From a candidate division WWE3 bacterium (lineage in GTDB: Bacteria; Patescibacteriota; WWE3; UBA101185; UBA10185), in NCBI GenBank assembly GCA_003599255.1, contig QZJF01000017.1, forward strand, positions 113,278 to 177,277: a stretch of 64,000 bases of DNA. The letters are read 5' to 3'. The notes under the pieces were generated by a model that ran no database searches, was not told the DNA's origin, and saw only the letters and a program-made list of their open reading frames with translations. Positions within the stretch are counted from its first letter, which is position 1. Every line of letters starts with the position of its first letter. Made by a program: the position numbers and the translations under genes. Below are positions 7,799 to 51,523 of the stretch, piece by piece.

Positions 7799-8473
7799 TT
7801 AATTTTGTGTTTGATATTTGGTTATGATATCAAAAAAATGATCGGGATCGGTACTGGCATTTCCGACCAAAACCCCATTTAATTCGGATATCCGGGCAAT
7901 TTCTTCTACATTATCTCTATTAACAGATCCGCCGTAGAGCACCGGGGTATCTTTTTTTAAGATTGCCCTTATTTTATTGGCTCCTTCTTGTATTTCAGCA
8001 GAGTCTTTTGGATTGTACACACCGTTTTTCGATATATTTGAGGGGTCTTCCCAGGCGAAAATAGCAGTATCCGAGAAGTTTTTATATACTTCCAAACTTG
8101 ACGTATCAACAAAACATATAATTGGAACGATATCGTTTTGGAGACACTGTTTGGCCTTTTTTGCTACGAACTCCGGAAATTCCTTGCGTTCGCTGTGACC
8201 TACAATACCATATTTACAAAAGTCCCTAATCTGAAAAGCACCGGTTTCTCCGGTATGTGCCCCCTTATCCTCCGCGGAAACATCCTGAGCGGCCAGCCTA
8301 AACCCGGCTTTCTCGGCGTAAGGAGTGGCGAAAGGCATATAAGTAAAAGTAGGGGCTACAATTATTTCGTCTTCCGTTTCTAATTTCTCAGATAGTTTAA
8401 GAAATGAAACTAACCAATCATTGACATTTATAAGGCTCATATTCATTTTCCAGTTGGCTACAATATAAGACAT
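7799..8473 (-). CDS. tpiA: Triosephosphate isomerase
   Basis: ANWKMN, GHSERK and YGGSV motifs are present. Confidence 0.9.
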   Translation of the reverse strand: MSYIVANWKMNMSLINVNDWLVSFLKLSEKLETEDEIIVAPTFTYMPFATPYAEKAGFRLAAQDVSAEDKGAHTGETGAFQIRDFCKYGIVGHSERKEFPEFVAKKAKQCLQNDIVPIICFVDTSSLEVYKNFSDTAIFAWEDPSNISKNGVYNPKDSAEIQEGANKIRAILKKDTPVLYGGSVNRDNVEEIARISELNGVLVGNASTDPDHFFDIITKYQTQN

Positions 8474-8478
8474 AGATT

Positions 8479-9351
8479 TTAACTGAGTTTTTTAAGGGTT
8501 TCTTCGATTAGACCCGGAAGATTTTCAATATCTTCGTGAGTGTAATCATACCCCAAAATATTTAAACATGAAAAAATAATTCCTACATCCGAATATATCT
8601 TTTCGGCGTATTGACAGGCTACAAGGCTGTGAATAAGCACATTTCCCCCCAGCTCTCCTGTCTTGGATCTTTCACATCCCATAGGGCAGTTTACACAAGA
8701 CGGTTGTGAACTTTCATTAACTGAAAGCTCATGCTTTCTGGCTAGCAGTGTGTGATAAAGATTTTGATATTTTTCCATGAGCAAAGGAGAAACAACCTCG
8801 GTACCTGTTAAAGAAATTGTTTTGATATTTTTTTTGGCAAATTTATTCTCCAGGAAATATTCGGGGGTAGTGAAATAGGAATCCAGAAGTGCTTTTGATT
8901 CGTCAAGTGAAAGAATACTTCTTCTGCCCGGAAGTCCTAGAGATCCGGATGATGTTTCCCCGCGTTTGAATGAGACGTCGGAATTCAGGATTTCCAGAAT
9001 TGTTTCTGATTCCGCAGTATTGTTTAAAACGATCGAGTCTATTCCTGTAAATCTCATTCTGGCAGCCATAGTTCCTCCAATATAAAAATCCTCTATTACG
9101 CCGCCGTCATTTACAACGATCGAAGTTTTGGATGCATATGGAAAAAAACCGTTTAACGGCCCTATGGAAATAATAAGAGGATCCTTTTCACCGAACATGT
9201 CCATGAGTTTCAAGCCTAATCCGACACCGCCTACATATCTTTGAAGCTCAGTGTAACTTTTAACTTCATAAGTCAGTTTTTCGAGGTCTATTAATAATAT
9301 TTTCTTACTGGTTAAATTCATCGGAATCTTCCTCTGAAATTGTAAACACAC
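8479..9351 (-). CDS. Truncated aldehyde:ferredoxin oxidoreductase (AOR)-family protein: AOR N-terminal domain plus CxxCxxxC motif, lacking most of the pterin-binding domains
   Basis: Residues 15-125 follow the AOR domain-1 pattern (KILLIDL...YVGGVGLGLKLM...IGPLNGFFPYASKTSIVVNDGG...GGTMAARMRFTGIDSIVL); compare the AOR motifs GGRGL, GP.NG and GG..A..M+.AG.D. A CVNCPMGC (C-x2-C-x3-C) motif occurs near residue 220, like the AOR [4Fe-4S] ligands. Only 290 aa, against about 600 for full AORs. Confidence 0.5.
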   Translation of the reverse strand: MCLQFQRKIPMNLTSKKILLIDLEKLTYEVKSYTELQRYVGGVGLGLKLMDMFGEKDPLIISIGPLNGFFPYASKTSIVVNDGGVIEDFYIGGTMAARMRFTGIDSIVLNNTAESETILEILNSDVSFKRGETSSGSLGLPGRRSILSLDESKALLDSYFTTPEYFLENKFAKKNIKTISLTGTEVVSPLLMEKYQNLYHTLLARKHELSVNESSQPSCVNCPMGCERSKTGELGGNVLIHSLVACQYAEKIYSDVGIIFSCLNILGYDYTHEDIENLPGLIEETLKKLS

Positions 9352-9577
9352 CGGTGGGACATATAGTTTGTAATTTTTTTATGTCCAGCTTGTTAATTCT
9401 GGGGTCCAGTTCGACGGAAAAGCCGATGCCTTTGTCCCCCCTGCCTCTCAGTACTCTGATTAGGGAGCCCTCGAAGCCCACTTTTTGAAGTTGCCGCTGT
9501 GCTTCAAGTACGCAAAGTTCACAACCTATGCATTTATTTGGAAATGTTACTTTCAAAATCATTTTAAAATTATCCAA
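9305..9577 (-). CDS. Small ferredoxin-like 4Fe-4S protein
   Basis: CIGCELCVLEA (CxxCxxC) plus a distal ICPTG (CP) motif. Overlaps the pgk stop by 8 nt and the AOR-like gene by 47 nt, indicating translational coupling. Confidence 0.6.
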   Translation of the reverse strand: MDNFKMILKVTFPNKCIGCELCVLEAQRQLQKVGFEGSLIRVLRGRGDKGIGFSVELDPRINKLDIKKLQTICPTGVFTISEEDSDEFNQ

Positions 9578-10532
9578 GTGCTTCTATGCCTGGCAGGGTT
9601 TTCTTAACCAAGAATTCCAGCATGGATCCACCTCCTGTTGAAACGAAGCTGAACTTTTCCAAGAGTCCCACTCTGTTAGCAGCTGCCACAGTGTCTCCGC
9701 CTCCTATCAAAGAAAAACAATTTGGATTTCCTGTTATTGCCTCTGCGATGGACTTAGTACCTAAGAGATATTTATCTTTTTCGTAAAATCCCATGGGACC
9801 GGCCCATAAAACTGTTTTAGCTGTGCTTATGATATCCACATATTTGCGCACGGTTTCGGGACCTATATCTAACTGGTTTTCGGCATAGTCAAGGGGAAGT
9901 ATCAGATTTTGAGGTATTTCATCTGTCCAATCAAGTCCGATCTTTCCTCCTATTAAAACGTAATCCGCAAGCTGAATAAATTTTGAAACGGTGGGTTTTT
10001 TGCTTTCCAATTTTGCTCCCCCTATAACAACAACAAACGGTTTTTCAGGGGAGTCCAGTATTTTTGTAAGGTGTTGAATTTCTGATTCAAGTCTAAACCC
10101 CGCAAAAGCAGGAAGGATTTTCGGTAGTTGCGCAATAGAAGCGTGTCTCCTGTGCGAAGTTGAGAAATTTTCGTTTACATAAATATCTGCCTTATCTGCC
10201 AATTCCCGAGCGTATTGTTCGTCATTATTTTCTTCCCGTATGTCAAACCTCAGATTTTCCAGTAAAACATAACCGCTAGTTCCAAGCTGCGTGTCAAAAA
10301 AGCTTTTTAAATGTCTTGTACTCAATATATCGTCGACTTTACCGTGTGGGCTACCCATATGACCCCCGAAAATAGGAATACCCCCCTTTTCCACTATAAA
10401 CTTAGTGGTAGGTAGCAGGCCTTCCAGTCTGTATGTTTCTTTTATCACCCCATTTTCTATTGGGACGTCCAGGTCTGCTGCAACAAAGACCCTAGTTCCT
10501 ATTTGTATAGGTGCATCTTTAATGGATTTCAT
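9570..10532 (-). CDS. pgk: Phosphoglycerate kinase (compact form)
   Basis: RVFVAADLDVP near the N-terminus; LENLRFDIREE, GGGDT and STGGGSMLEFLVKKTLPGIEAL motifs. Short at 320 aa. Confidence 0.85.
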   Translation of the reverse strand: MKSIKDAPIQIGTRVFVAADLDVPIENGVIKETYRLEGLLPTTKFIVEKGGIPIFGGHMGSPHGKVDDILSTRHLKSFFDTQLGTSGYVLLENLRFDIREENNDEQYARELADKADIYVNENFSTSHRRHASIAQLPKILPAFAGFRLESEIQHLTKILDSPEKPFVVVIGGAKLESKKPTVSKFIQLADYVLIGGKIGLDWTDEIPQNLILPLDYAENQLDIGPETVRKYVDIISTAKTVLWAGPMGFYEKDKYLLGTKSIAEAITGNPNCFSLIGGGDTVAAANRVGLLEKFSFVSTGGGSMLEFLVKKTLPGIEALG

Positions 10533-10572: not shown

Positions 10573-11655
10573 TTACGCGGATGCAAGAACCGCCATTTCG
10601 ACAAGACGGTTGCTATATCCCCATTCGTTATCGTACCAGGCTAAGACCTTAACCAGATCCCCGTCAATAACCTTTGTCATACTCAGATCGCAGATAGCAG
10701 AATACGGAGTTCCCACTATATCCGACGATACAAGAGGATCGTATGTGACAGAAAGGACGTTTTTGTATTTAGGATCTTTACTCGCTTTAGAAAGAGCCTC
10801 GTTAATTTCCTCGGCGGAGGTCTTCTTTTCCACCAGCATTGTTATGTCTGAAATTGATCCGGTAACAATCGGTACGCGAATTGATATCCCGTCAAATAAT
10901 CCGGAAAGCTCAGGGATTACGGATGTTGTTGCTTTGGCCGCCCCGGTTGTAGTGGGGACCATGTTAAATGAAGCGGCTCTGGCTCTTCGCATATCGGGAT
11001 GAAGTGGGGGAGGAGGGCCATCTACTACGTTTTGTTCGGCAGTAACTGCATGAACCGTTGTCATAGCAGATTTTAGTATTTTGAAATTTTCGTGAATTAC
11101 CCGAACTACCGGGGAGATGCAATTAGTTGTGCACGAAGCATTAGATATTACATTTTGGCCAAGATATTGTTCGTCGTTTACACCCATCAGGAATGTTTGT
11201 GTTGTTCCGCCTTTTGTAGGTGCGGAAACCACAACTTTTTTTGCCCCCGATTGCACATGAACGGCAGCCGCATCGTCTTTAGTGAAACGCCCGGTGCATT
11301 CAAGGACTACATCCACCTGCATGTCCTTCCAGGGAAGCAGAGCGGGGTCTTTTTCCGACAAAACTTTGATTTTTTTATTATCGACTATCAGATAGGTTTC
11401 TTTGGCGGACTGAGAGAAAAAATCTTTACTTTGATGGAGGGTGTCTTCCATTTTAACTACTTTCCCGTCCTCTTCTAAATGCACTTCCTTGGAGAAAATG
11501 CCGTATGCGGTGTCGTATTTCAAGAGATGCGCGAGAATTCGCGGGTTTGTGAGATCGTTTATGGCAACCACTTCAACGTCCTGTCTATCGGCAGCGATCT
11601 TGAAAGAGGCTCTTCCTATTCTTCCAAATCCGTTTATGGCTATTCGGGCAGTCAT
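10573..11655 (-). CDS. gap: Glyceraldehyde-3-phosphate dehydrogenase
   Basis: INGFGRIGR Rossmann motif; active-site SNASCTTNC; C-terminal WYDNEWGYS. Confidence 0.9.
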   Translation of the reverse strand: MTARIAINGFGRIGRASFKIAADRQDVEVVAINDLTNPRILAHLLKYDTAYGIFSKEVHLEEDGKVVKMEDTLHQSKDFFSQSAKETYLIVDNKKIKVLSEKDPALLPWKDMQVDVVLECTGRFTKDDAAAVHVQSGAKKVVVSAPTKGGTTQTFLMGVNDEQYLGQNVISNASCTTNCISPVVRVIHENFKILKSAMTTVHAVTAEQNVVDGPPPPLHPDMRRARAASFNMVPTTTGAAKATTSVIPELSGLFDGISIRVPIVTGSISDITMLVEKKTSAEEINEALSKASKDPKYKNVLSVTYDPLVSSDIVGTPYSAICDLSMTKVIDGDLVKVLAWYDNEWGYSNRLVEMAVLASA

Positions 11656-11921
11656 TTATTTAAATTAGAATTTATCCAGCTGCGCAATATCTCTTTAGGC
11701 ATTGCACCGACTTTTCTGTCAATCTCCTTATCTTCCTTGAGAATTACAAAGGTAGGAATGCTGAGAACGTTGAATCTGCCGGCGGAATCCGCATCCGTTT
11801 CAACATCCACTCGTTTAAATGTTACTTTACCTTGATACTCTTTTTCTAATTCTTCGAAAATGGGCTCCATTATTTTGCAGGGGCCACACCAGTCTGCATA
11901 AAAATCTACAAGTTGAATCAT
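11652..11921 (-). CDS. trxA: Thioredoxin
   Basis: WCGPCK active site in an 89-aa protein. Stop is 2 nt from the gap start. Confidence 0.85.
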   Translation of the reverse strand: MIQLVDFYADWCGPCKIMEPIFEELEKEYQGKVTFKRVDVETDADSAGRFNVLSIPTFVILKEDKEIDRKVGAMPKEILRSWINSNLNK

Positions 11922-20936: not shown

Positions 20937-23798
20937 CTAACCCTTATAAACAAATGGACAGATGTCTTTGTAATCGCACCATGTGCAGTGCATTCCCGGT
21001 GTTGCTTCGTAATCTCCTTTTTTCAGTCTCTCCACCACTTGGATGACCGTTCTTTTTGCCTGCGTTAATTCCTCAGGTGTGTGAGTCGTCGAAATTTTAA
21101 CTCCCTCTTCCAAGAAATACAGGCTTAATAATTTAGGATTCAGTTTGAGTGCTTCCCTGGCGGCTATGTCATATAGGGCCAGCTGTGTATCTTTATCTAC
21201 CTCTTTTTGTGTTTTTGTTGCCCCGGTTTTGTAATCGATAATTTCAACACCGTCCGAATATTCGTCTATTCTGTCGATACGGCCTTTAAACTGAATGCCT
21301 CCCAGATTAAGAGAGAAGCGTTTTTCCAGAGCTATATGTTTTATGGAGTCATTTTTATGCTTGCTATGATATCTTTCCAGCAGCTCCTTTCCGTTTTCAA
21401 AGCGCATCTTTCTGTGTTCTTCGTTCATATACCCAAGCGGCTGCCAGTTATTTTCGTAGGCATACAATAAATCATCCAAACTAACTTCTTTGTTAAACAT
21501 TAATTTCGTGTGGAAATCCCTAAGAGTGTCGTGAATAGTTGTTCCAAAGCTTAACGCGTGACTTGGCAGAGTCGGAAGCTTTAAGACATACTTATATTTA
21601 TATTGAAGAGGGCATGTTGTGTAATTATCAACTGCAGAAAAGCTTAGAGACTCAGGCAGTGTTCCGTTAATTTTAATTATTGCCGAATCCCTAAATCCGG
21701 AGTTTATTCCGAAAAGAGTATTAGTTTCACCGTCCGGTTTAATTTTTCCAGGATCTTTTGTATCCAAACCTATCTCTTGCAGAAATCCGCTCGGAGTCTT
21801 TTCCCGTTTTCCTCCGTAGTCTTTTCCGTAAGTCATGTACAAATATTTTTTAGCCCTGGTCATGCCGACATAAAACAGACGCCTTTCTTCCTGGATATGT
21901 TCGTCTCCCGACGGGAGAGTTTCCTTGATTAGTCTGTCAGGAATCATGATTGCATCTTTTCTGTTTCTGGTCGGGAATCTGTCAGACACAAGGTTCACTA
22001 AAAATACTACGGGGAACTCCAGACCTTTAGCCGAGTGGGCGGTAAGAAGGTTAATTGTATCAATATCTTTGATTTCTGCCTGTGCGGGGTTATCTCCGGC
22101 CTCGATAATTAGTTCCAGATAATCGACAAAGTCCAGCAATGTTGGATATTCCCTATGCTCTTGGTGAAAGTCTATCTCAAACTTTTTTACTATATTTAAG
22201 AATAAGTCCAGATTTTCAATGGCAAGCTGATTTTCTATCGTTTCTTCTTCAGTAAATTGAGATATGTAGTTAATTGAATTGACCGCAGAGAAAACGAATT
22301 CAACTGGAGTGCTTTTGGTAATATTTTTTTGAAAGTCCAAAATTCTTTGATAGAAAAACTGTAAGGAATCGCTTTTACTTTTTTTGATTGTCTCCCACAG
22401 ATCTTCTTTACCAATTCTTGATTTGGCCAAAATTGCCGCCACATCCGTGTATGGGATTTTTAAAGTACTGATATTCAAGGTTCTATACAGACTTATCGGG
22501 TCATTTGGATTTAAAACTGTTTTCAGGAGTGCGATTATGTCTCTAATTTCGTCCCGATCATATAGACCTCTGTTGCCCACCAATTGATAGGGGATTCCCT
22601 TTTGTCTAAGACCCAGCAGAAATGCATCAAGGTGATTATTTGCTCGTGCGAGAATAGCAAAGTCTTTGTAGGTGTACCCCGGTTCTTTTGCGAGTATTTC
22701 CAGAATTTTCGAAACAACAAATTCAACTTCCTCCTCAAGCGTTTCGGTTCTGATTATTTCCGGGGACTCCCCCTGTATGTTAGCCTCACTTGTTATTTTT
22801 TTGGATATTCCTAACTTTGATTCAAGCGTATCCGGGTTGTTGTTTTGGATTAGCCTGTATGCAGGATCCAAAATCTCCTGCGAAGACCGATAATTTTGCA
22901 GAAGAGTCACCATTTCCGAATCAGGGTAATCTCTCATAAATTCAAGAATGTTGGAAACGGCCGCCCCTCTGAATTTATAGATTGATTGAGAGTCATCTCC
23001 CACCGCCACCAGACTTCTCTCTCCTAAAAAAGCGGGGCATAACATTTTAATCAGAATATACTGCGCATAGTTTGTATCCTGAAACTCGTCGACTAGCACG
23101 TGCCGGAATTGTTTTTGATATTTTTTTAATATTGCCGGTCTGTCATTAAATAATTTTATTGTCCATGTAATTAAATCTCCGAAGTCGAGTCTTGATTTTT
23201 CAATTTTTATTTTCGTATATGTCTCGTAAATATGTGCCAGTTCCTGCCATCTTTGAATCTCGTCCCCGGTTTCAAAATTATCTTTGGAATTTTCCACGTA
23301 TTCCCGTAGATTATCCGGCGATATGTTTTCGTCCTGAAGTCTTGAGATAAATTTAAGCGCATCGGAAATAAATTTAGTGGGATTGCCCAAGGGTCTGAAA
23401 TAATTCATTTGCATTTTGAAAAGGCCCTTTCTCAAAAGCAGCCATTGCTCGGGTCCTGAAAGTATTTTGTATGAGGGGTCCAGACCAATCTCTATTCCTT
23501 CGGATTTTAAAATGCGATCGGCGAAGGAGTGAAAAGTGTATACCCATGGTTCTTCATAACCCAATGGCATTACATCCCCAATTCTTTCCAGCATTTCTCC
23601 TGCTGCCTTCTCAGTGAAGGTAAGCGCAAGAATTTCGTGGGGTTTTACGTTTTTATCCAGTATTAAATGGCGGATTCTTTCGGTTATAACGCGCGTTTTG
23701 CCTGTGCCGGCACCGGCAACCACAAGCAGAGGACCGTTTTCGTGCATGATTGCCTTCTTTTGATTGTCGTTCAGCTCGATTTTGGATTTGTTTGCCAT
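20937..23798 (-). CDS. UvrD-like helicase fused to a C-terminal PD-(D/E)xK (RecB/Cas4-like) nuclease domain with a Cys4 iron-sulfur motif
   Basis: N-terminus has AGAGTGKTRV (Walker A), DEFQDTN and FRGA. The C-terminus has TTCPLQYKY... GRIDRIDEYSDGVEIIDYKTG (RecB-nuclease motif) ...CTWCDYKDIC, the Cas4/AddB-type cysteine arrangement. Confidence 0.8.
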   Translation of the reverse strand: MANKSKIELNDNQKKAIMHENGPLLVVAGAGTGKTRVITERIRHLILDKNVKPHEILALTFTEKAAGEMLERIGDVMPLGYEEPWVYTFHSFADRILKSEGIEIGLDPSYKILSGPEQWLLLRKGLFKMQMNYFRPLGNPTKFISDALKFISRLQDENISPDNLREYVENSKDNFETGDEIQRWQELAHIYETYTKIKIEKSRLDFGDLITWTIKLFNDRPAILKKYQKQFRHVLVDEFQDTNYAQYILIKMLCPAFLGERSLVAVGDDSQSIYKFRGAAVSNILEFMRDYPDSEMVTLLQNYRSSQEILDPAYRLIQNNNPDTLESKLGISKKITSEANIQGESPEIIRTETLEEEVEFVVSKILEILAKEPGYTYKDFAILARANNHLDAFLLGLRQKGIPYQLVGNRGLYDRDEIRDIIALLKTVLNPNDPISLYRTLNISTLKIPYTDVAAILAKSRIGKEDLWETIKKSKSDSLQFFYQRILDFQKNITKSTPVEFVFSAVNSINYISQFTEEETIENQLAIENLDLFLNIVKKFEIDFHQEHREYPTLLDFVDYLELIIEAGDNPAQAEIKDIDTINLLTAHSAKGLEFPVVFLVNLVSDRFPTRNRKDAIMIPDRLIKETLPSGDEHIQEERRLFYVGMTRAKKYLYMTYGKDYGGKREKTPSGFLQEIGLDTKDPGKIKPDGETNTLFGINSGFRDSAIIKINGTLPESLSFSAVDNYTTCPLQYKYKYVLKLPTLPSHALSFGTTIHDTLRDFHTKLMFNKEVSLDDLLYAYENNWQPLGYMNEEHRKMRFENGKELLERYHSKHKNDSIKHIALEKRFSLNLGGIQFKGRIDRIDEYSDGVEIIDYKTGATKTQKEVDKDTQLALYDIAAREALKLNPKLLSLYFLEEGVKISTTHTPEELTQAKRTVIQVVERLKKGDYEATPGMHCTWCDYKDICPFVYKG

Positions 23799-26617: not shown

Positions 26618-28162
26618 ATGTTGGAAAATCTGGTAATTAAATACGATAAACAGGTACATAGAATGCTTGAGCTCTCTCTTGGGATGCTTACGTGGGCACT
26701 TCTGTCATCGCCTATATGGCTTGGTTTGCTATATCCTCCAGCCATTGTGTACTTGCTAACCTTCTTCACTGTCTACTGGTCATACATGGCATTCAGGCAC
26801 ACGATGGGAATGTATATCGGTTATAGGAATTACAAAAGGGAAATGGCGCAAGATTGGATGGACGAATGCAATAAGCTAAACTTTTCCTTGCTTCCCGACA
26901 CTGGTACTCTTCCGCAATCGTTGGCGGATGTGCGGCACCTGTTTCTTATTCCTGTGTATAGCGAACCCGAGGGAGTTTTAAGAGATACTATCGGGAGTAT
27001 CTTATCGCAAACTTTCCCAACGGAGCAGGTTGTACTGGTTTTTGCTGTCGAAGAAAAGTATTCCGATACCGTTGTTCCCAATATTTATAAAATAATTAAC
27101 GAATCTGAAAGAAAATTTCACAAAGTGAAGCATTACGTACACCCTGCCGGAATTCCGGGAGAGGCCATAGGAGCGGCTGCAGCAAATAGGACCTGGGGAG
27201 CAAAACATGCCGTTGATGATTTAAGAGCTGAGGGAGAAAATCTCCGCAATTATATTTTCAGCACAATCGATGCGGACCATGTGTTAAATAATCAGTACAT
27301 TGCCAGACTCACCCACCTTTATCTGACTGCCGACAGAAGGGATTACCACTATTATTCTACGGCGGTACACCTTTTTAATAACAATCTTTGGAGGGTGCCT
27401 TCAATGATGCGAATAGAGGCGAACGCTGTTACTTTAGGCAGCCTTTCGGACTGGGTAGTATCAAACAGAGAGTTTAAAGACACATTTTCTTCTTACTCCT
27501 CATCTTTGCAGACATTAATAGACGCCGATTTTTGGGATGTATCTTTGGGGGTAGACGATACTATATTTTACTGGAGAGCTTTTTTTGTGAGAAATGGAGA
27601 TTTTGACGGGGTTCCCCATTACATTCCCTATTCAGCGGATGCCGTAGAAGGAAAGAATTTCCTGGACTCGCATGTGCGTTTATACAAACAGCTTCTTCGA
27701 TGGGGGTGGGGTGCAATAGATTTTCCGTTATCGGTCAAAGAGTTTATGAAGAACAGAAAGATTGCGACTACTAAGAAGATAAAATGGATAATTAAGCATA
27801 TAGAAAAAAGAGTGATACTTATTAATATTGTATTCTTAATTACGTTCGGATTTGGCATGGTTACTCTTGTGAATCCGTATGTTAAGCAGTCAAATTTTGC
27901 CTATAGCCTTCCGAATATAATGAGTGTGATTTTGACCATCACATTGATCTTCCTGATTCCCGGCACGTACTTCAGAAACAAATTCACAAATCCCGTTCCA
28001 AAGAATTGGCCTTTATGGAGAAAGTTTATGGTGCTTATGGAGGGTCCGCTTATCATTCTCAATTTATTGACATTTTCCTTTTTCCCTTGGATAGAAGCCC
28101 AAACAAGAATGATGATGGGTAAAAAACTCAAAGACCTGTATCACACACCTAAGGTTAGGTGA
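26618..28162 (+). CDS. Membrane-embedded family-2 glycosyltransferase (processive synthase-like, QxxRW motif)
   Basis: N- and C-terminal TM bundles flank a cytoplasmic GT-A domain with DADH (DxD-like) and QLLRWGWG (QxxRW) motifs. Confidence 0.6.
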   Translation: MLENLVIKYDKQVHRMLELSLGMLTWALLSSPIWLGLLYPPAIVYLLTFFTVYWSYMAFRHTMGMYIGYRNYKREMAQDWMDECNKLNFSLLPDTGTLPQSLADVRHLFLIPVYSEPEGVLRDTIGSILSQTFPTEQVVLVFAVEEKYSDTVVPNIYKIINESERKFHKVKHYVHPAGIPGEAIGAAAANRTWGAKHAVDDLRAEGENLRNYIFSTIDADHVLNNQYIARLTHLYLTADRRDYHYYSTAVHLFNNNLWRVPSMMRIEANAVTLGSLSDWVVSNREFKDTFSSYSSSLQTLIDADFWDVSLGVDDTIFYWRAFFVRNGDFDGVPHYIPYSADAVEGKNFLDSHVRLYKQLLRWGWGAIDFPLSVKEFMKNRKIATTKKIKWIIKHIEKRVILINIVFLITFGFGMVTLVNPYVKQSNFAYSLPNIMSVILTITLIFLIPGTYFRNKFTNPVPKNWPLWRKFMVLMEGPLIILNLLTFSFFPWIEAQTRMMMGKKLKDLYHTPKVR

Positions 28163-36845: not shown

Positions 36846-36919
36846 GGCCTGGTCGCCAAGTGGTAAGGCAAGGGTCTGCAAAACCCTTATCAGGGGTTCG
36901 ATTCCCCTCCAGGCCTCCA
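36846..36919 (+). tRNA. tRNA-Cys (anticodon GCA)
   Basis: 74-nt cloverleaf read by hand: acceptor GGCCTGG/CCAGGCC, D-arm GCC-AAGTGGTAA-GGC, anticodon stem AGGGT/ACCCT with loop CTGCAAA (anticodon GCA), T-arm AGGGG-TTCGATT-CCCCT, discriminator T, encoded CCA. Confidence 0.85.
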
Positions 36920-36962: not shown

Positions 36963-38786
36963 ATGACCACGCAGGAAATACTGACAAAATATTTAGAATT
37001 TTATAAAAAAAGAGGGCACAAACAGGTTCCGAATGTTTCTCTCGTTCCCGAAGGTGATTCTACTCTTTTATTTGTAAATAGCGGAATGTTTCCGTTGGTT
37101 CCTTATCTTTCCGGGGAGTCTCATCCTTTGGGAAAAAGGCTGGTTAACGTACAAAGAGCCGGCAGGTTTGCTACGGATTTAGATGAAGTGGGAGACAGAA
37201 CTCATACCGTAGCATTTCATATGATTGGTAACTGGAGTTTGGGAGATTATTTTAAAGATGAACAGCTTCCGTGGGCGTATGAGTTTTTGATTGAGGAGAT
37301 CAAACTTGATCCCAACAGATTAATCGCGACGGTTTTCGAAGGGGACGAGAGTGCTCCTAAAGATGATGAATCAATAAAAATCATTCAGGAAATATTTAAG
37401 AAATACGGAATAGACGCCAAGGAAGGAGTAAGAATTTTCCCACGTCCAAAAGAGGATAACTGGTGGCAGCGAGGCGAAGCAGTGGGCGAACTGGGCGGAC
37501 CAGATAGTGAGGTCCATTACTTCCTTGGTGAAGGTTCCCCTGAGGGGAAAGACCCGATTGAAAATGAAAGTGAATTTATCGAGATAGGAAATTCGGTTTT
37601 TATGCAATATCGAAAGACAGAAACCGGATGGGAGGAGCTGCCTCAGAAAAATGTGGATTTTGGCGGAGGTCTGGAGCGATTAGCCATGGTTGTGCAAGGC
37701 AAGAATGATATTTTTGAAACCGACAGCTTCTGGCCAATCATCGAAAAAGCGCAGGAAATTACAGGAAAACGATACGGGGAAAGCGAGGAAGTTACTATAG
37801 CAATGCGAATATTGGCCGACCACATGAGGGCATGTGTGCTTCTGGCTATGGACGGTGTGCGTCCAAGCAACAAAGATCAGGGATATATGCTGCGCAGACT
37901 GATTAGGAGAATGGTACGTGCTGCAAGGAAACTTGGTTTTGAAAAAGATTTATCTACAAGGTTGGTGGGAGTGGTGACCGAAACATTGTCCTGGTTGTAT
38001 CCTGACTTGCCCGGCATGGAATCGGAAATAAAAACGGTGTTTGAGAATGAAGAAGTTAAGTTTTTGAAGACTCTGGAAAAGGGAACAAAAGAAGTTGATA
38101 AAAGTTTAAAAAAACTTACCGGAAACAATTTGGACGATTTGGTAAATATTGCTTTTGATTTGTATCAGTCGCTGGGATACCCGGCGGAAATTTTTATTGA
38201 GGACGTAAAAGATAAGGGAATCTCTGTTAATCAAAATGATTTTACAAAGGCTTTTGACGAAAAGTTTGAGCAACATCAGGCACAGTCCCGTGCCGGTTCG
38301 GAGCAGAAATTCAAGGGAGGACTTGCCGACCATAGTGACACCGTTGTCAAATACCACACAACTACGCATTTACTTCAGCGAGCGCTTAAAAATATTTTAG
38401 GAGATCATGTAAGACAGATCGGAAGTAATATTACATCTGAAAGGCTTCGTTTCGATTTTGTTCACGATAAGAAACTTACTGATGAGGAGATAACCCGGGT
38501 AGAGAAATTTATTGCCGAATCCGTTGAACAGAAATACCCCGTCAATTTTGTGATGCTGCCAAGAGAGGGCGCTATGCAGAGTGGGGCGTTATATCTTGCA
38601 GGAGAAACATATCCTGAAGAGGTCAAGGTTTATTACATAGGAGAAAGCTTGGAACGGGCACTTAGCAAAGAATTTTGCGGTGGCCCACATGTAAGTAATA
38701 CTTCTGAATTAAGCGAAGTTGAAATTTATAAGCAGGAAACCTTAGGTGACGGAAAACAAAGAGTTTACGTCCGATTTATTAATTAA
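36963..38786 (+). CDS. alaS: Alanine--tRNA ligase, short form (catalytic + tRNA-recognition + editing domains, no C-Ala domain)
   Basis: The N-terminus (FYKKRGHKQVPNVSLVPEGDSTLLFVNSGM...FHMIGNWSLGDYFK) matches AlaRS motifs. Editing-site HTTTHLL...H and CGGPHV motifs are present. 607 aa. Confidence 0.85.
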   Translation: MTTQEILTKYLEFYKKRGHKQVPNVSLVPEGDSTLLFVNSGMFPLVPYLSGESHPLGKRLVNVQRAGRFATDLDEVGDRTHTVAFHMIGNWSLGDYFKDEQLPWAYEFLIEEIKLDPNRLIATVFEGDESAPKDDESIKIIQEIFKKYGIDAKEGVRIFPRPKEDNWWQRGEAVGELGGPDSEVHYFLGEGSPEGKDPIENESEFIEIGNSVFMQYRKTETGWEELPQKNVDFGGGLERLAMVVQGKNDIFETDSFWPIIEKAQEITGKRYGESEEVTIAMRILADHMRACVLLAMDGVRPSNKDQGYMLRRLIRRMVRAARKLGFEKDLSTRLVGVVTETLSWLYPDLPGMESEIKTVFENEEVKFLKTLEKGTKEVDKSLKKLTGNNLDDLVNIAFDLYQSLGYPAEIFIEDVKDKGISVNQNDFTKAFDEKFEQHQAQSRAGSEQKFKGGLADHSDTVVKYHTTTHLLQRALKNILGDHVRQIGSNITSERLRFDFVHDKKLTDEEITRVEKFIAESVEQKYPVNFVMLPREGAMQSGALYLAGETYPEEVKVYYIGESLERALSKEFCGGPHVSNTSELSEVEIYKQETLGDGKQRVYVRFIN

Positions 38787-46042: not shown

Positions 46043-49000
46043 ATGCCGAAGAAAAATGTAATTAAAAAATCTGCCATGGTACCTACTGCGCTTATTGCGG
46101 GTGGCGCCGGTTTCATAGGGTCTCACTTATGCGAAGCACTTCTTTCACGTGGGGCACGTGTAATTGTTCTTGACAATTTCAACACCGGCAAAGAAATTCA
46201 TATAAATCACCTTTTGCAAAATCCTAATTTTGCCCTTTATAACGTCGATATAAATACTGGGCTTCCGCCCGAAATCGAAAGTGTGGATTACATATTTCAT
46301 CTGGCGGGATTAGAAGAATATCTATATAGCAAGGAAAGTGTGAACTTGAACTCGCTTCTGACCAATGCTCTCGGCACTAAAAACTTATTGGATCTTGCCC
46401 AGAGATCTCAAGCAAAATTCCTTTTGGTCTCCAGCATTGACGTATACGAAGGTAGGATGTCACAACTTGAACTCGAAGAATACTTCGGTAGCACAAAAAT
46501 TGATGAGAACAAGTACATGCTCACTGAGGCAAAGAGGTATGCCGAAGCGCTTGTTTGGGAGTATTACAAGAAAAATGATACGGACTTGAGAATTGTCCGG
46601 TTGCCGGAAATTTTTGGTCCCAGAATGGATTTGTCCGCCAGCGGCAGCTTGGGCATGTTTCTAAAAGACCTGATTGAGCATCGCGATATCACAGTTTACG
46701 GGGAGGGATCTAACAAGGAATATTACCTTTACATTACAGATGCGATTTCCGGGATTTTGAAGACATTGTTCGGCGATAAATCCAAGGGAAATATTTATTC
46801 GTTGGTCTGGAATGTTCCGACAACGGTTCTTCAACTTGCTTATGTTGTAAAATCTGTTGCCGATAGAGAAGTAAATATTGTATTTAAAAACAATACTTCG
46901 AAAGATAACTACAGACCGAATCCCAAAATACCAGACTCATTCAACCTCCGCCAGCTCGGTTGGGAACCACGCATGGATATAAAGGACGGAATAGTCAAGT
47001 CGCTAGAATATTTCGGATATAAACCAAACGCGCACAGTTTCAAACCGGCGGAACTGATTGAAAAAAAGACCTCAATCACTCAGGAGTTACCGAAAGAGGA
47101 AACAGGTGAGATTTTTACTTTGCAAGATGTAAAGGAACCAGAGAAGGAAATTGCAGTTCCGGTTCTTCACGAGATTTCCGAGCCCGCACCCCCGGCGGGC
47201 CCGTCCGAACCGGTTCAGTCGATCCAGAGCGCTCCGGTGACCGCTGAAAATCCTTACGGTAATCTTCAAAGTTTTCACACCGGACAGCCTGAGATAGCAG
47301 TGAAACAAAAACAAAAAATTAAGCTGCTGAATTTTGGAAAATTATTCTCAGTAAAAGTCTTAAGTATTTTCGGCGTATTGTTTTCGGCAATGCTAATATT
47401 TTTTGCTCTTCCCGGTGTACAGACATATTTCTATACCAGAGCAAGTATGAACTCAATGTCAGCACTGGCAACATCGGCCGGCCAACTCGATTCGGCGGGT
47501 GTACGGTCAAACGCACGCAGTTCTTATCAAAATCTTGTAAAAGCTAAAAATTCATTCGCCAATCTCAAGTGGTTCTTTTTAGTATCGGGAAAACAAAGCC
47601 AATTTGAAAGTATGGATAAACTTTATAGCTCGTTGGCTTACTTCTCAAAATCCGGATATCAGATGGCGGAGACCATAGAACCGTTTGAAAATCTTTGGGA
47701 AGTTGTGCGTCCGGACACGGCGGAGGAACTCGATCCCGCGAGCTTTGAAAGTGTTAAATCCAATGTAGATCAGGCAAAAAACACTTTCCAGCTTGCCCTG
47801 GCTGATTTTAAGCAGGTTAACATTCAGGATTTGCCCGTACAAGTCAGGGAAAAAGCTGTTGAATATCAGAAAGTTTTAGACATAACTTCGAAAGGTTTAG
47901 ATATGGCCGCTCCTGTGCTTTCTTCTTTTCCAAACATATTGGGTGCGGATGAATCTAAAAAATACATGATCCTGTTTCAAAACTCTAACGAAATAAGACC
48001 TACCGGTGGATTCATCGGGTCATATGGTTTGTTGACTTTTGAAAAGGGAAAAATAAAAGATCTATTGATAGACGATATATACAATCCGGATGGACAAATA
48101 GAATTGCGGAATATAAATGTTGCACCCCCTGAACAAATTAAAGAATTTCTTAACGAAGAAAGATTGTATATAAGAAATGCAAATTGGGATCCGGATTTTC
48201 CGGTCTCAGCCAATACGATTTCTGATCTTTATTTTAAAGTAACAGGAGAGAGTCTCGACGGGGTTATCGCAGTTGATCTATATTTTGTTCAGAATATTCT
48301 AAAAGCTACCGGGCCAATATTTTTAACTGCCTATAATGAAGAAATTAATGCCGAAAATCTTTATGAACGGGCTGAGTTTCACAGCGAGTTCAATTACGAG
48401 AACGGTTCGGACAGCAAACGATCTTTTCTGACTGTTTTAGGAAGCAAGCTTCTTGAAAAAATATTCTCGTTATCAAGAGAACAACTTCCGCAGCTATTTA
48501 CCGAAATGGGGTACGCACTCAATGACAGACATTTACTAATAACGCTGGCAAACGACCCCCTAAACGCTTTATTGGAGGAACAGCATTGGAATGGAGGTGT
48601 TGTTGACACAACAAGTGATTATCTCTATGTGGTAAATGCAAATGTGGGCGGAACCAAAGCAAATTATTATGTAAAAAATAAAATGAATTACCACGTGAAG
48701 TCTCTAACCAGGGATGGACTATTGAGAGGGGTTCTCGTTTTGGAATACGTACATACCGGTACAGACGATGCTTGGCCTGGGGGACCTTATGAAAACTATG
48801 TTAGAGTGTTGACCCAGGAAGGATCCAAGTTAACAGGTGCGACATTGAAAGTAAACGATGGAGAGGAAAAAGATGTTCTAAATGAAATAAGGGTATCTAC
48901 TTTGAGTAAGTATAATGTTTTTGGCACAAGTTTTACGCTTAATCCGACTGAAAAAATAACCCTGACAATAGAATATGATTTGCCTGCAGCATTCACATTG

Positions 49001-49198
49001 ACTAAGGAGCAAAAAGAATACGCATTGTATTGGCAGAAACAATCCGGGACTCATCATGACGAATATGAATTTTCGTTTGACGTGCCGTTCGGTTTTGAGA
49101 TCTCAACAACCACGGAAGGTTTAGTTAGGGAGGATGGTACGTTAAAGTCCATTGGGTCTCTTAATGAAGACAAAAAGTTTTATGCTAAACTTCAGTGA
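46043..49198 (+). CDS. Giant fusion protein: N-terminal NAD-dependent sugar epimerase/dehydratase (UDP-glucuronate decarboxylase-like) + Pro-rich linker + TM helix + ~600-aa extracytoplasmic domain of unknown function
   Basis: Residues 15-330 carry GGAGFIGSHL (Rossmann), YSKES-type and Y..AK catalytic positions typical of extended SDRs. Then a PAPPAGPSEPVQSIQSAPV linker, a TM helix (LFSVKVLSIFGVLFSAMLIFFAL), and a large external domain with a conserved-looking QNSNEIRPTGGFIGSYG segment. Confidence 0.6.
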   Translation: MPKKNVIKKSAMVPTALIAGGAGFIGSHLCEALLSRGARVIVLDNFNTGKEIHINHLLQNPNFALYNVDINTGLPPEIESVDYIFHLAGLEEYLYSKESVNLNSLLTNALGTKNLLDLAQRSQAKFLLVSSIDVYEGRMSQLELEEYFGSTKIDENKYMLTEAKRYAEALVWEYYKKNDTDLRIVRLPEIFGPRMDLSASGSLGMFLKDLIEHRDITVYGEGSNKEYYLYITDAISGILKTLFGDKSKGNIYSLVWNVPTTVLQLAYVVKSVADREVNIVFKNNTSKDNYRPNPKIPDSFNLRQLGWEPRMDIKDGIVKSLEYFGYKPNAHSFKPAELIEKKTSITQELPKEETGEIFTLQDVKEPEKEIAVPVLHEISEPAPPAGPSEPVQSIQSAPVTAENPYGNLQSFHTGQPEIAVKQKQKIKLLNFGKLFSVKVLSIFGVLFSAMLIFFALPGVQTYFYTRASMNSMSALATSAGQLDSAGVRSNARSSYQNLVKAKNSFANLKWFFLVSGKQSQFESMDKLYSSLAYFSKSGYQMAETIEPFENLWEVVRPDTAEELDPASFESVKSNVDQAKNTFQLALADFKQVNIQDLPVQVREKAVEYQKVLDITSKGLDMAAPVLSSFPNILGADESKKYMILFQNSNEIRPTGGFIGSYGLLTFEKGKIKDLLIDDIYNPDGQIELRNINVAPPEQIKEFLNEERLYIRNANWDPDFPVSANTISDLYFKVTGESLDGVIAVDLYFVQNILKATGPIFLTAYNEEINAENLYERAEFHSEFNYENGSDSKRSFLTVLGSKLLEKIFSLSREQLPQLFTEMGYALNDRHLLITLANDPLNALLEEQHWNGGVVDTTSDYLYVVNANVGGTKANYYVKNKMNYHVKSLTRDGLLRGVLVLEYVHTGTDDAWPGGPYENYVRVLTQEGSKLTGATLKVNDGEEKDVLNEIRVSTLSKYNVFGTSFTLNPTEKITLTIEYDLPAAFTLTKEQKEYALYWQKQSGTHHDEYEFSFDVPFGFEISTTTEGLVREDGTLKSIGSLNEDKKFYAKLQ

Positions 49199-49216
49199 AC
49201 AATGTAGAATTAATGT

Positions 49217-51521: not shown

Positions 51522-51523
51522 GA

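What the first reader, a model, noticed from the sequence alone, without database searches (positions are those of the whole stretch)
8479..9577. Half-size aldehyde:ferredoxin-oxidoreductase-like protein plus a ferredoxin wedged between pgk and tpiA in the glycolytic operon
The 290-aa ORF carries a recognisable AOR domain-1 (GG.GLG.KLM / GPLNG / GGT.A..M+..G.D pattern) and a C-x2-C-x3-C motif spaced like the AOR [4Fe-4S] ligands. It is only about half the length of a tungsten/molybdenum AOR (roughly 600 aa) and so cannot carry a complete pterin-binding fold. It overlaps a single-cluster ferredoxin (CxxCxxC...CP) and sits in a tightly coupled trxA-gap-pgk-fdx-AORlike-tpiA operon, the position a GAP:ferredoxin oxidoreductase would occupy. 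It could be a degraded GAPOR remnant or a new small redox module partnering glycolysis with ferredoxin. Either would be unusual for a bacterium.
Basis: partly seen in the sequence, partly recalled or inferred. Interest (0 to 1): 0.7.

Follow-up and report, generated by a model that had tools for sequence, protein, structure and literature searches.

The report
Pterin-less mini-AOR with partner ferredoxin
A candidate-phylum (WWE3) bacterium keeps, inside its glycolysis gene cluster, a strongly conserved half-size relative of tungsten aldehyde:ferredoxin oxidoreductases that has lost the tungsten-cofactor domains but kept its iron-sulfur site and a small partner ferredoxin, so it is probably a small electron-transfer module and not a sugar-oxidising enzyme or a dead gene.

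The parts
8479..9321 (-). Mini-AOR gene, 280 aa from the ATG at 9321. The longest ORF, 290 aa, starts at the GTG at 9351. It comprises a trimmed AOR domain 1, the [4Fe-4S] cradle and short C-terminal helices.
8956..9303 (-). Segment matching Pfam AFOR_N (profile positions 2-130 of 199), which is AOR domain 1.
   Evidence: The translation was verified. K65 occupies the position of AOR Arg76 and Y80 the position of Asn93, read by hand from the 1aor alignment.
8674..8697 (-). CVNCPMGC: three [4Fe-4S] ligands (C209, C212, C216 in 280-aa numbering).
   Evidence: Aligns with 1aor C288/C291/C295. Invariant in 120 of 120 homologs and at least 93% conserved across all 32 reduced forms.
8614..8628 (-). 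SLVAC: remnant of the second (domain-3) pterin motif, carrying the fourth cluster ligand C236.
   Evidence: BLASTP aligns residues 229-268 to residues 483-521 of the Methanothrix 580-aa AOR. The motif aligns with NSLVxCLF/TSLVICLF in archaeal AORs. C236 is invariant.
8566..8568 (-). Fifth conserved cysteine (C252, in FSCLN), of unknown role.
   Evidence: Nearly invariant in the 280-aa clade. It is Ala in the 215-aa forms and in full-length P0165 and P0169, so it is not a universal ligand.
8536..8538 (-). H262, in YTHEDIE. It is the only polar non-Cys residue, other than the motif-adjacent S208, that is conserved across all reduced forms.
   Evidence: Archaeal AORs have no His at this position.
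9305..9562 (-). Partner ferredoxin, 85 aa from the ATG at 9562 (the ORF from the TTG at 9577 gives 90 aa). CIGCELC lies at 9512-9532 and the distal CP at 9356-9361, giving one predicted [4Fe-4S] cluster.
   Evidence: CxxCxxC is present in 77 of 77 loci and the distal CP cysteine in 76 of 77. The gene lies upstream of the mini-AOR in 75 of 75 species loci. hhalign to the N-terminal part of the archaeal polyferredoxins gives 95.7% probability, E 8.5e-9, over 76 columns. It overlaps the mini-AOR start by 17 nt.
9570..10532 (-). pgk (320 aa), the upstream neighbour.
   Evidence: Pfam PGK 266 bits. It lies directly upstream of the pair in 57 of 69 loci, with gap there instead in 6.
10573..11655 (-). 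gap, an NAD-type phosphorylating GAPDH (360 aa, SCTTNC active-site motif).
   Evidence: Pfam Gp_dh_N and Gp_dh_C. Present within 5 kb in 44 of 55 loci.
11652..11921 (-). trxA (89 aa), the first gene of the co-directional cluster.
   Evidence: Pfam Thioredoxin 89.8 bits. Present within 5 kb in 44 of 55 loci, but absent from the loci with a full-length AOR-like gene.
7799..8473 (-). tpiA (224 aa), which starts 5 nt after the mini-AOR stop.
   Evidence: Pfam TIM 143 bits. Adjacent downstream in 70 of 70 loci. Sequence.

Best explanation
What it is (high confidence, about 0.9). It is a miniaturised two-gene derivative of the polyferredoxin + AOR module. An ancestral full-length AOR-like gene, still 538-554 aa in sister Patescibacteria at the same locus, lost several segments by in-frame deletion. 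These are about 50 residues before the Cys motif, the roughly 190-residue tungstopterin-binding core of domains 2 and 3, the C-terminal roughly 45 residues, and the GRxGLGA phosphate/Mg loop of domain 1. What remains is domain 1 and the cradle of the [4Fe-4S] cluster, with all four canonical cysteine ligands. The partner polyferredoxin shrank in parallel to an 85-aa protein with one cluster.

How it most likely works (inferred, about 0.45-0.5). The two translationally coupled proteins form a heterodimer that carries two [4Fe-4S] clusters. This corresponds to the middle of the electron wire of WOR5, AorAB or BamBC, without the tungsten active site and without the distal clusters. The pair would act as a dedicated low-potential electron carrier or relay, a ferredoxin surrogate, co-expressed with lower glycolysis. 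The most plausible role is to accept electrons from the two-subunit pyruvate:ferredoxin oxidoreductase of WWE3 and pass them on, for example towards the cytoplasmic [NiFe] hydrogenase. It would not itself oxidise glyceraldehyde-3-phosphate or any other aldehyde.

For: Cluster ligands retained: CxxCxxxC aligns with 1aor C288/C291/C295. SLVxC aligns with the domain-3 Cys motif of archaeal AORs. All four Cys are invariant, and they are among the few residues conserved across all 32 reduced forms.

Pterin site lost: there is no AFOR_C hit. The YDYE, GxD, GYHTG and RHSHLDNxGYS blocks and the GRxGLGAxxGSK loop are absent. The full-length Patescibacteria relatives already have degenerate AFOR_C, at 41-92 bits against 202-219 bits in the archaeal relatives, and they lack the RHSH block.

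Functional and selected: the ferredoxin is upstream in 75 of 75 loci and tpiA is adjacent downstream in 70 of 70. No disrupted copies were found. dN/dS is 0.016-0.17. In the closest WWE3 genome pairs dN is 0.031-0.051, against 0.108-0.147 for tpiA, 0.043-0.073 for pgk and 0.051-0.063 for gap.

Derivation in place: full-length forms sit in the same slot, small ORF then AOR-like gene then LytR-holA-sortase. The 215-217 aa forms sit there too. The reduced forms make one clade at 84% bootstrap, sister to the Cys-bearing full-length P0165/P0169.

Partner: hhalign of the small ferredoxin to archaeal polyferredoxins gives 95.7% probability. The gene order polyferredoxin then AOR is seen in the archaeal relatives. 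The 17-nt overlap is shown.

Physiological fit: the complete WWE3 genome is reported to have a PFOR with alpha and beta subunits, an ADP-forming acetyl-CoA synthetase and a type-3b hydrogenase. Its listed electron carriers include only 'a ferredoxin oxidoreductase-like protein', cytochrome b5 and a cupredoxin, with no ferredoxin (PMC3812714). Two divergent loci place a 3b-type hydrogenase operon next to pgk-fdx-miniAOR-TIM.
Against: No biochemical data exist. Cluster binding, heterodimer formation and absence of pterin are all inferred from sequence and from one monomer model. The main 280-aa clade has many invariant polar residues (K65, E77, D78, Y80, E223, N227, H262, E263, E266) and very low dN. 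That is more than a simple electron carrier seems to need, and it hints at a specific binding or catalytic site. Some full-length relatives (P0164, P0168, P0174) have lost all four cluster cysteines yet are retained with the ferredoxin, so the family's conserved role may not be purely cluster-based. The PFOR and hydrogenase link rests on one paper's gene inventory and on two related loci. I could not check whether WWE3 genomes encode other ferredoxins or any molybdopterin synthesis genes.
Confidence: 0.5

Rival explanations
1. It is an iron-sulfur sensor or a regulatory or scaffolding partner. In this reading the cluster reports redox state, O2 or iron status, and the protein binds and modulates a glycolytic enzyme (GAPDH, PGK or TIM) or another protein, without carrying net electron flux.
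For: Very strong sequence constraint, with many invariant surface-type polar residues. The gene stays within gap-pgk-tpiA across three size classes. Some full-length relatives lack the cluster cysteines yet persist, which suggests a protein-protein role for domain 1 and the C-terminal helices.
Against: A dedicated, translationally coupled ferredoxin partner with conserved ligands is present in every reduced-form locus examined (75 of 75 species loci) and in three of the four full-length loci, including those next to Cys-less forms. That points to electron transfer. There is no DNA-binding or known sensor domain. The conserved block also contains unrelated genes, so the link to glycolysis may reflect synteny and not function.
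Confidence: 0.2
2. It is a new cluster-only enzyme. The remodelled former pterin pocket beside the [4Fe-4S] cluster would have acquired a new catalytic activity on a triose-phosphate-related or other small substrate, with the ferredoxin as redox partner.
For: There is an invariant polar set (E77, D78, Y80, K65, E223, N227, H262, E263, E266), and H262 is specific to the Patescibacteria clade. dN is lower than for the neighbouring enzymes. K65 sits where AOR Arg76 contacts the pterin phosphate, read by hand from the alignment, so a phosphate-binding role is conceivable.
Against: All four cluster ligands are cysteines, so there is no open iron site of the aconitase or IspH type. No known catalytic motif is present. 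There is no Pfam, NCBIfam or PDB similarity outside the AOR family.
Confidence: 0.1
3. It is still a tungsten or molybdenum pterin aldehyde or GAP:ferredoxin oxidoreductase. The missing pterin-binding parts would be supplied by homo-oligomerisation or by a separately encoded AFOR_C-like subunit (a split AOR).
For: The position next to gap and pgk is where a GAPOR would make sense. The closest archaeal relative sits beside FBP aldolase/phosphatase. The remnant of the second pterin motif and the Arg76-equivalent Lys are retained.
Against: No AFOR_C. The catalytic Glu and His blocks and both Mg/phosphate loops are absent. The missing core has no match in the window or in about 0.93 Mb of WWE3 loci. 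There is no GAPOR_Arch match. GAPDH and PGK are both present. No Moco or W genes were found among the window ORFs scanned. Even the full-length Patescibacteria forms have degenerate pterin regions. The global search for a stand-alone core was uninformative, so the idea is not formally excluded.
Confidence: 0.07
4. It is a ferredoxin-dependent thioredoxin or disulfide reductase analog. The cluster plus the extra conserved cysteine would reduce the thioredoxin encoded at the head of the cluster, for example to keep the GAPDH catalytic cysteine reduced.
For: trxA heads the cluster in 44 of 55 loci. There is a fifth nearly invariant Cys (C252) in the 280-aa clade.
Against: There is only one extra Cys, and no CPC or CHC motifs of the FTR type. 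C252 is absent from the 215-aa forms and from P0165 and P0169. trxA is absent from the loci with full-length forms.
Confidence: 0.05
5. It is a decaying remnant or pseudogene of a GAPOR or AOR.
For: It is half the normal length, and a full-length homolog sits at the same locus in relatives.
Against: dN/dS is 0.016-0.17 with dN at or below the neighbouring glycolytic genes. The ORF is intact in all 75 species loci at a conserved length of 278-305 aa. The AlphaFold2 model is compact and confident. The partner gene is conserved.
Confidence: 0.01

Closest known systems
Tungsten aldehyde:ferredoxin oxidoreductase family: AOR 1aor, FOR 1b25, WOR5 6x1o, BamB 4z3w, AorB 8c0z, bifurcating AOR 9mqx
   Different: It is about 280 aa instead of about 600. 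The AFOR_C pterin-binding core is missing, including the first DxxGLD motif, the catalytic Glu313 and His448 regions, and the Arg182/Ala183 loop. A tungsten-bis-pyranopterin site is therefore not expected.
Two-subunit AOR systems with a polyferredoxin partner: WOR5-L/S, AorAB(C), BamBC, and the archaeal polyFd-AOR pairs in L079 and L081
   Same: The gene order is ferredoxin subunit then AOR subunit. The small protein is homologous to the N-terminal part of the polyferredoxin (hhalign 95.7%). A contact between the AOR cluster and the proximal ferredoxin cluster is presumed.
   Different: The partner keeps one cluster instead of four, and there is no catalytic subunit chemistry. Only the central two clusters of the electron wire would remain.
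GAPOR: glyceraldehyde-3-phosphate:ferredoxin oxidoreductase, NCBIfam NF040818
   Same: It belongs to the AOR superfamily, it has a glycolytic gene neighbourhood, and it is linked to ferredoxin.
   Different: There is no match to the GAPOR model. The nearest full-length relative scores 29 bits against a cutoff of 1300. The pterin domains are absent. GAPDH and PGK are both present, so nothing is being bypassed.
Full-length AOR-like proteins of sister Patescibacteria: P0165, P0169, P0176, and the Cys-less P0164, P0168, P0174
   Same: They are orthologous by position (small ORF, then AOR-like gene, then LytR-holA-sortase, next to pgk or gap) and by phylogeny. The C-terminal IY.D...F..L.SLG..HE block is shared.
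   Different: They are 538-554 aa and still have a weak AFOR_C of 41-92 bits. Some have lost the cluster cysteines. No tpiA follows them.

Membership tests
AOR superfamily (Pfam AFOR_N + AFOR_C tungstoenzymes) | N-terminal domain 1 (AFOR_N) | tested here: met
AOR superfamily (Pfam AFOR_N + AFOR_C tungstoenzymes) | One [4Fe-4S] cluster bound by CxxCxxxC plus a distal Cys in the second DxxGLC motif | tested here: met
   Tested at sequence level only. The motif aligns with 1aor C288/291/295. SLVAC aligns with the domain-3 Cys motif. All four Cys are invariant. Metal content cannot be tested with these tools.
AOR superfamily (Pfam AFOR_N + AFOR_C tungstoenzymes) | Domains 2 and 3 (AFOR_C), with two pterin-binding motifs and the catalytic Glu and His | tested here: not met
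   No PF01314 hit. About 190 core residues, the first GxD motif, and the YDYE, GYHTG and RHSH blocks are absent.
AOR superfamily (Pfam AFOR_N + AFOR_C tungstoenzymes) | Tungsten or molybdenum bis-pyranopterin cofactor, and a genomic pathway to make it | not testable with these tools
   No whole-genome access was available. No Moco or W genes were found among the window ORFs scanned. The literature search found nothing specific.
GAPOR (NCBIfam NF040818 GAPOR_Arch) | Equivalog-level sequence match (cutoff 1300 bits) | tested here: not met
   No GAPOR_Arch hit for the 290-aa ORF. The closest full-length archaeal relative scores 29 bits.
GAPOR (NCBIfam NF040818 GAPOR_Arch) | Replaces or bypasses the GAPDH + PGK step | tested here: not met
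   Phosphorylating GAPDH and PGK are both encoded in the same cluster. gap lies within 5 kb in 44 of 55 loci, and pgk is adjacent in at least 57 of 69.
Single-cluster [4Fe-4S] ferredoxin (for the 85-aa partner) | CxxCxxC ... CP ligand pattern | tested here: met
   CIGCELC plus CP. Present in 77 of 77 and 76 of 77 loci respectively. Pfam Fer4 is just below gathering, at 20.4 against 21.1 bits.
Polyferredoxin subunit of two-subunit AOR enzymes | Homology to the partner polyferredoxin, and gene order ferredoxin then AOR | tested here: met
   hhalign 95.7% probability, E 8.5e-9, 76 columns against archaeal polyferredoxins that precede the related AORs. Only one of the four cluster motifs is retained.
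Polyferredoxin subunit of two-subunit AOR enzymes | Physical complex with the AOR subunit | not testable with these tools
   No multimer prediction was available. A complex is inferred from the 17-nt overlap and strict co-occurrence.

The most novel reading that the evidence does not exclude
The ferredoxin and mini-AOR pair is a previously unrecognised, cofactor-minimal redox device that is specific to WWE3-type Patescibacteria. One version is that it is the missing ferredoxin system, wiring the two-subunit PFOR and possibly a glycolytic step to hydrogenase in these ultra-small fermenters. The other is that it is a new cluster-only enzyme built on the emptied tungstopterin pocket of an AOR. 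Either way it would show how a complex tungstoenzyme was stripped to a functional Fe-S core when the organism could no longer make the pterin cofactor.
Probability: 0.15. Interest if true: 0.85.

Novelty: new variant of a known kind. Interest (0 to 1): 0.6.

Why it matters
AOR-family proteins are treated as obligate tungsten or molybdenum pterin enzymes. Here a whole bacterial lineage keeps, under selection at least as strong as on its glycolytic enzymes, an AOR reduced to domain 1 plus the [4Fe-4S] site, together with a similarly reduced partner ferredoxin. Three size classes (about 550, 280 and 215 aa) at one syntenic position give a natural series of stepwise enzyme miniaturisation in organisms thought to lack cofactor biosynthesis. 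Databases currently name the protein 'aldehyde:ferredoxin oxidoreductase', which would wrongly credit WWE3 with aldehyde or GAP oxidation in metabolic reconstructions. If the pair is the electron acceptor of PFOR, it would fill a gap in models of CPR fermentation. It would also give a tractable minimal model of the AOR cluster environment and its docking to the ferredoxin subunit.

Tried and rejected
1. Pseudogene or decaying remnant: rejected by dN/dS, intact ORFs and the confident fold.

3. GAPOR orthology: rejected.

4. Split AOR with the core encoded nearby: tblastn of the missing core against the window and all fetched loci (0.93 Mb) found nothing. The global profile search was uninformative. 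It scored only 8000 word-sharing candidates, returned one partial hit and did not recover the query proteins, so it counts neither way.

5. A second, independent mini-AOR family (P0209, 295 aa, next to a MogA/MoaB-like gene): it is a singleton from one 3.3-kb contig, so I gave it no weight.

6. Archaeal origin of the adjacent tpiA. Jaffe et al. 2020 (PMC7304191) report that some Katanobacteria TIMs cluster with archaeal references. My PDB search gave 7r7m (216 aa) and then ordinary ~250-aa TIMs, with nothing identified as archaeal among the top hits, so this is left open.

8. A heterodimer structure prediction could not be run, because the tool handles single chains only.

9. Literature: five searches combining WWE3, Patescibacteria or CPR with AOR, ferredoxin, tungsten or molybdopterin found no description of this protein. 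One query was rejected for syntax.

10. The first attempt at a bootstrap tree timed out and was redone.

11. Some ferredoxin dN/dS pairs were nonsensical because of crude start-site extraction, and I ignored them.
Full report
**Observation**

The minus strand of the window carries a tightly packed, co-directional cluster. In order it holds:
- trxA, 11921-11652
- gap, 11655-10573
- pgk, 10532-9570
- a small Cys-rich ORF, 9577-9305
- the ORF in question, 9351-8479
- tpiA, 8473-7799
- LytR, holA and sortase, separated by only a few nucleotides

Pfam confirms Thioredoxin, Gp_dh_N/C, PGK and TIM for the flanking genes. For the ORF it gives AFOR_N at E 1.2e-18, 68 bits against a cutoff of 29.8. The match covers only residues 17-132 and profile positions 2-130 of 199, and there is no AFOR_C hit. 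NCBIfam gives only a sub-threshold hit to a generic AOR model and nothing to GAPOR. The small ORF has CIGCELC...CP and a Fer4 score just under gathering. A 100%-identical protein is deposited as C4561_03960 from a candidate division WWE3 bacterium, so the window comes from a WWE3 (Katanobacteria, Patescibacteria/CPR) genome.

**Gene boundaries**

The 120 best homologs listed are almost all 278-287 aa and begin at the equivalent of MNLTSKK. The gene is therefore most likely 9321-8479 (280 aa), not the 290-aa GTG ORF. The ferredoxin homologs begin at the equivalent of MILKV, giving 9562-9305 (85 aa). Reading the DNA directly:
- pgk ends with TAA, and the ferredoxin ATG follows 7 nt later.
- The mini-AOR ATG lies inside the last 17 nt of the ferredoxin gene, behind a GAGGAAG Shine-Dalgarno-like site.
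- tpiA starts 5 nt after the mini-AOR stop.

**Anatomy**

The protein is not simply the N-terminal half of an AOR. BLASTP against the closest full-length relative found, a 580-aa Methanothrix AOR (L079), aligns residues 6-192 with AOR residues 3-220. It separately aligns residues 229-268 with AOR residues 483-521. The latter is the domain-3 segment that carries the fourth [4Fe-4S] cysteine in AORs. A profile search of the PDB aligns YPSCxNCPxGC with NKPC288YAC291PIGC295 of P. furiosus AOR.

An E-INS-i alignment of half-size, Patescibacteria full-length and archaeal full-length proteins shows in-frame losses of:
- two short loops in domain 1, and its GRxGLGAxxGSK loop, which is the Arg182/Ala183 region that binds the pterin phosphate and Mg in AOR (established knowledge of 1aor)
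- about 50 residues before the Cys motif
- about 190 residues containing the YDYE (Glu313), first GxD pterin motif, GYHTG and RHSHLDNxGYS blocks
- the last roughly 45 residues

Retained are CxxCxxxC, SLVxC and the following helices.

**Distribution, context and selection**

The family has 360 members at E <= 1e-3 in the 90%-clustered database. An exhaustive profile search of 1.84 billion representatives finds roughly 30 near-full-length clusters of 270-302 aa before it reaches full-length AORs.

A scan of one genome per species recovered 75 WWE3/Patescibacteria loci:
- The small ferredoxin is upstream in 75 of 75.
- tpiA is directly downstream in 70 of 70 with enough flank.
- pgk is directly upstream in 57 of 69 (two more overlap by 1-2 nt), and gap is there instead in 6.
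- gap and trxA each lie within 5 kb in 44 of 55.

Every near-full-length copy examined is an intact ORF of 278-305 aa. Two apparent stops were artefacts of my start extrapolation.

Nei-Gojobori dN/dS is 0.016-0.17. In the four closest WWE3 genome pairs, the mini-AOR dN (0.031-0.051) is below that of tpiA (0.108-0.147), pgk (0.043-0.073) and gap (0.051-0.063). dS is near saturation in many pairs, so the ratios are approximate. The within-pair comparison of dN is robust. This is a functional gene under strong constraint, not a remnant.

**Origin**

The nearest full-length proteins (538-554 aa, AFOR_N plus a weak AFOR_C of 41-92 bits) are themselves from WWE3/Patescibacteria. They sit in the same syntenic slot:
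- pgk, small ferredoxin, AOR-like, LytR, holA (L084)
- UvrD, gap, ..., small ferredoxin, AOR-like, LytR, holA, sortase (L083, L086)
- pgk, AOR-like, LytR, holA, sortase (L085)

Two of them (P0165, P0169) keep all four cluster cysteines and share the C-terminal IY.D.G..F.AL.SLG..HE block with the mini form. Three (P0164, P0168, P0174) have lost the cysteines, while their upstream ferredoxin keeps its own. All of them have already lost the RHSH... block that is conserved in the archaeal relatives.

Still smaller forms of 215-217 aa occupy the same slot, as pgk, fdx, mini, TIM, LytR.

A neighbour-joining tree on the shared columns puts all reduced forms in one clade at 84% bootstrap. That clade is sister to P0165/P0169, and the whole Patescibacteria group separates from the archaeal-type AORs at 83%. 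The simplest history is a resident polyferredoxin + AOR module whose pterin site degenerated. It then suffered one major in-frame deletion in the WWE3 stem, and a further reduction in one sub-lineage.

The positions at least 93% conserved across all 32 reduced forms are the four cluster cysteines, several Gly/Pro, S208, L233, F250 and H262.

**The partner**

The small protein has CxxCxxC in 77 of 77 loci and the distal CP cysteine in 76 of 77. By hhalign it aligns over 76 columns with the N-terminal part of the polyferredoxins that precede the related archaeal AORs (95.7% probability, E 8.5e-9). The first CIGCxxC motif and a distal CP are kept. The intervening CRGC cluster motif is replaced by DPRI. 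In the 215-aa lineage the motif is still CxGCxxCxxACSRK, as in the archaeal polyferredoxins. Both genes are therefore reduced versions of the two subunits of a WOR5-, AorAB- or BamBC-type enzyme.

**Mechanism**

*Shown:* AOR ancestry, loss of the pterin core, retention of all cluster ligands, an obligate and translationally coupled ferredoxin partner, strong purifying selection, and a fixed position in the gap-pgk-[ ]-tpiA block.

*Inferred:* each protein binds one [4Fe-4S] cluster and they form a heterodimer. With no tungstopterin site, the pair would act as a low-potential two-cluster electron relay or carrier.

The published inventory of the complete WWE3 genome (PMC3812714) lists a PFOR with alpha and beta subunits, an ADP-forming acetyl-CoA synthetase and a type-3b hydrogenase. 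The electron carriers it names do not include a ferredoxin; it lists only 'a ferredoxin oxidoreductase-like protein' (possibly this gene), cytochrome b5 and a cupredoxin. In two divergent loci a 3b-type hydrogenase operon abuts the cluster. I therefore favour the role of electron acceptor for PFOR within fermentative glycolysis. I give about 0.45-0.5 to the electron-relay mechanism and about 0.2 to PFOR and hydrogenase as the specific partners.

*Against this reading:* the main clade has an unusually large invariant polar set, and Cys-less full-length orthologs exist. Both keep a regulatory or scaffolding role (0.2) and a new cluster-only catalytic role (0.1) alive. A still-tungsten-dependent GAPOR or AOR, completed by oligomerisation or by a separate subunit, is unlikely (0.07). 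An FTR-like thioredoxin reductase role is unlikely (0.05). A pseudogene is effectively excluded.

**Comparison with what is known**

The protein belongs to the AOR superfamily by descent and by fold, but it fails the defining AFOR_C/pterin feature. It should not be annotated as aldehyde:ferredoxin oxidoreductase, as JGI does. NCBI's name, 'AFOR N-terminal domain-containing protein', is safer. It is not a GAPOR. Five literature searches found no description of it.

I rate it a new variant of a known kind, with interest 0.6. A specialist in tungstoenzymes or CPR metabolism would find a pterin-less AOR core conserved across a whole lineage surprising. Its function remains inferred.

**Limits**

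- There is no whole-genome access, so the absence of Moco and W genes and of other ferredoxins is untested.
- No multimer prediction was available, and no model coordinates were returned.
- The global search for a stand-alone pterin core was uninformative.
- The correlation of tpiA with the reduced forms (70 of 70, plus L087, L088 and L092, against 0 of 4 full-length loci) is a single phylogenetic contrast.

Noticed in passing
window 7799-8473 (-); loci L083-L086 compared with L004-L077, L087, L088, L092: tpiA is short (224 aa), and its best PDB match is a 216-aa TIM, 7r7m (E 9e-72). It follows the reduced AOR forms in every locus with enough flank, but it is absent from that slot in all four loci that carry a full-length AOR-like gene. 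This is one phylogenetic contrast, so it may be coincidence. Jaffe 2020 (PMC7304191) reports that some Katanobacteria TIMs group with archaeal references, which my PDB search did not obviously reproduce.
   Followed up: partly
P0164, P0168, P0174 (loci L086, L083): Full-length AOR-like proteins of sister Patescibacteria have lost all four [4Fe-4S] cysteines, while the small ferredoxin encoded just upstream keeps its CxxCxxC...CP ligands. So different sub-lineages discarded different cofactor sites of the same protein.
   Followed up: partly
L087 176-4656 and L088 804-4622: A four-gene group-3b-like [NiFe] hydrogenase operon (large subunit, small subunit, FAD/NAD subunit, Fe-S subunit) lies divergently next to pgk-fdx-miniAOR-TIM in two divergent members of the family.
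   Followed up: no
L079 3301-6737 (Methanothrix): The closest archaeal full-length relative sits in the order FBP aldolase/phosphatase (572 bits), polyferredoxin, AOR (580 aa). That is an AOR of unknown substrate next to a gluconeogenic enzyme. It is not a GAPOR ortholog (29 bits against a cutoff of 1300).
   Followed up: partly
L091 503-1390 (P0209): A 295-aa AOR with a complete domain 1, CxxCxxxC, a 38-residue linker and NSLVMCLFAEKIYD has the same 'core-only' architecture but archaeal-type motifs. It lies next to a MogA/MoaB-like gene. It is a singleton from one 3.3-kb contig, so it may be a recent deletion or an assembly artefact.
   Followed up: yes
window 9570-10532 (-) and 10573-11655 (-): PGK is only 320 aa against a Pfam model of 379 positions, and it matches in three stretches. 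GAPDH (360 aa) matches Gp_dh_N in two stretches, which suggests an insertion in the NAD domain.
   Followed up: no
window 46043-53938 (+): There is a 1051-aa fusion of an NAD-dependent epimerase/dehydratase with DUF4012. It is followed by a PrgI-like protein (533 aa) and a TraG/VirB4-like P-loop ATPase (804 aa), which looks like a type-IV-secretion-like cluster.
   Followed up: no
window 20937-23798 (-), 26618-28162 (+), 36963-38786 (+): An AddA-like UvrD helicase fused to a PD-(D/E)XK nuclease (953 aa), a 514-aa ORF with no Pfam match, and an alanyl-tRNA synthetase of only 607 aa. The only Rfam hit in the 64-kb window is a tRNA at 36846-36916.
   Followed up: no
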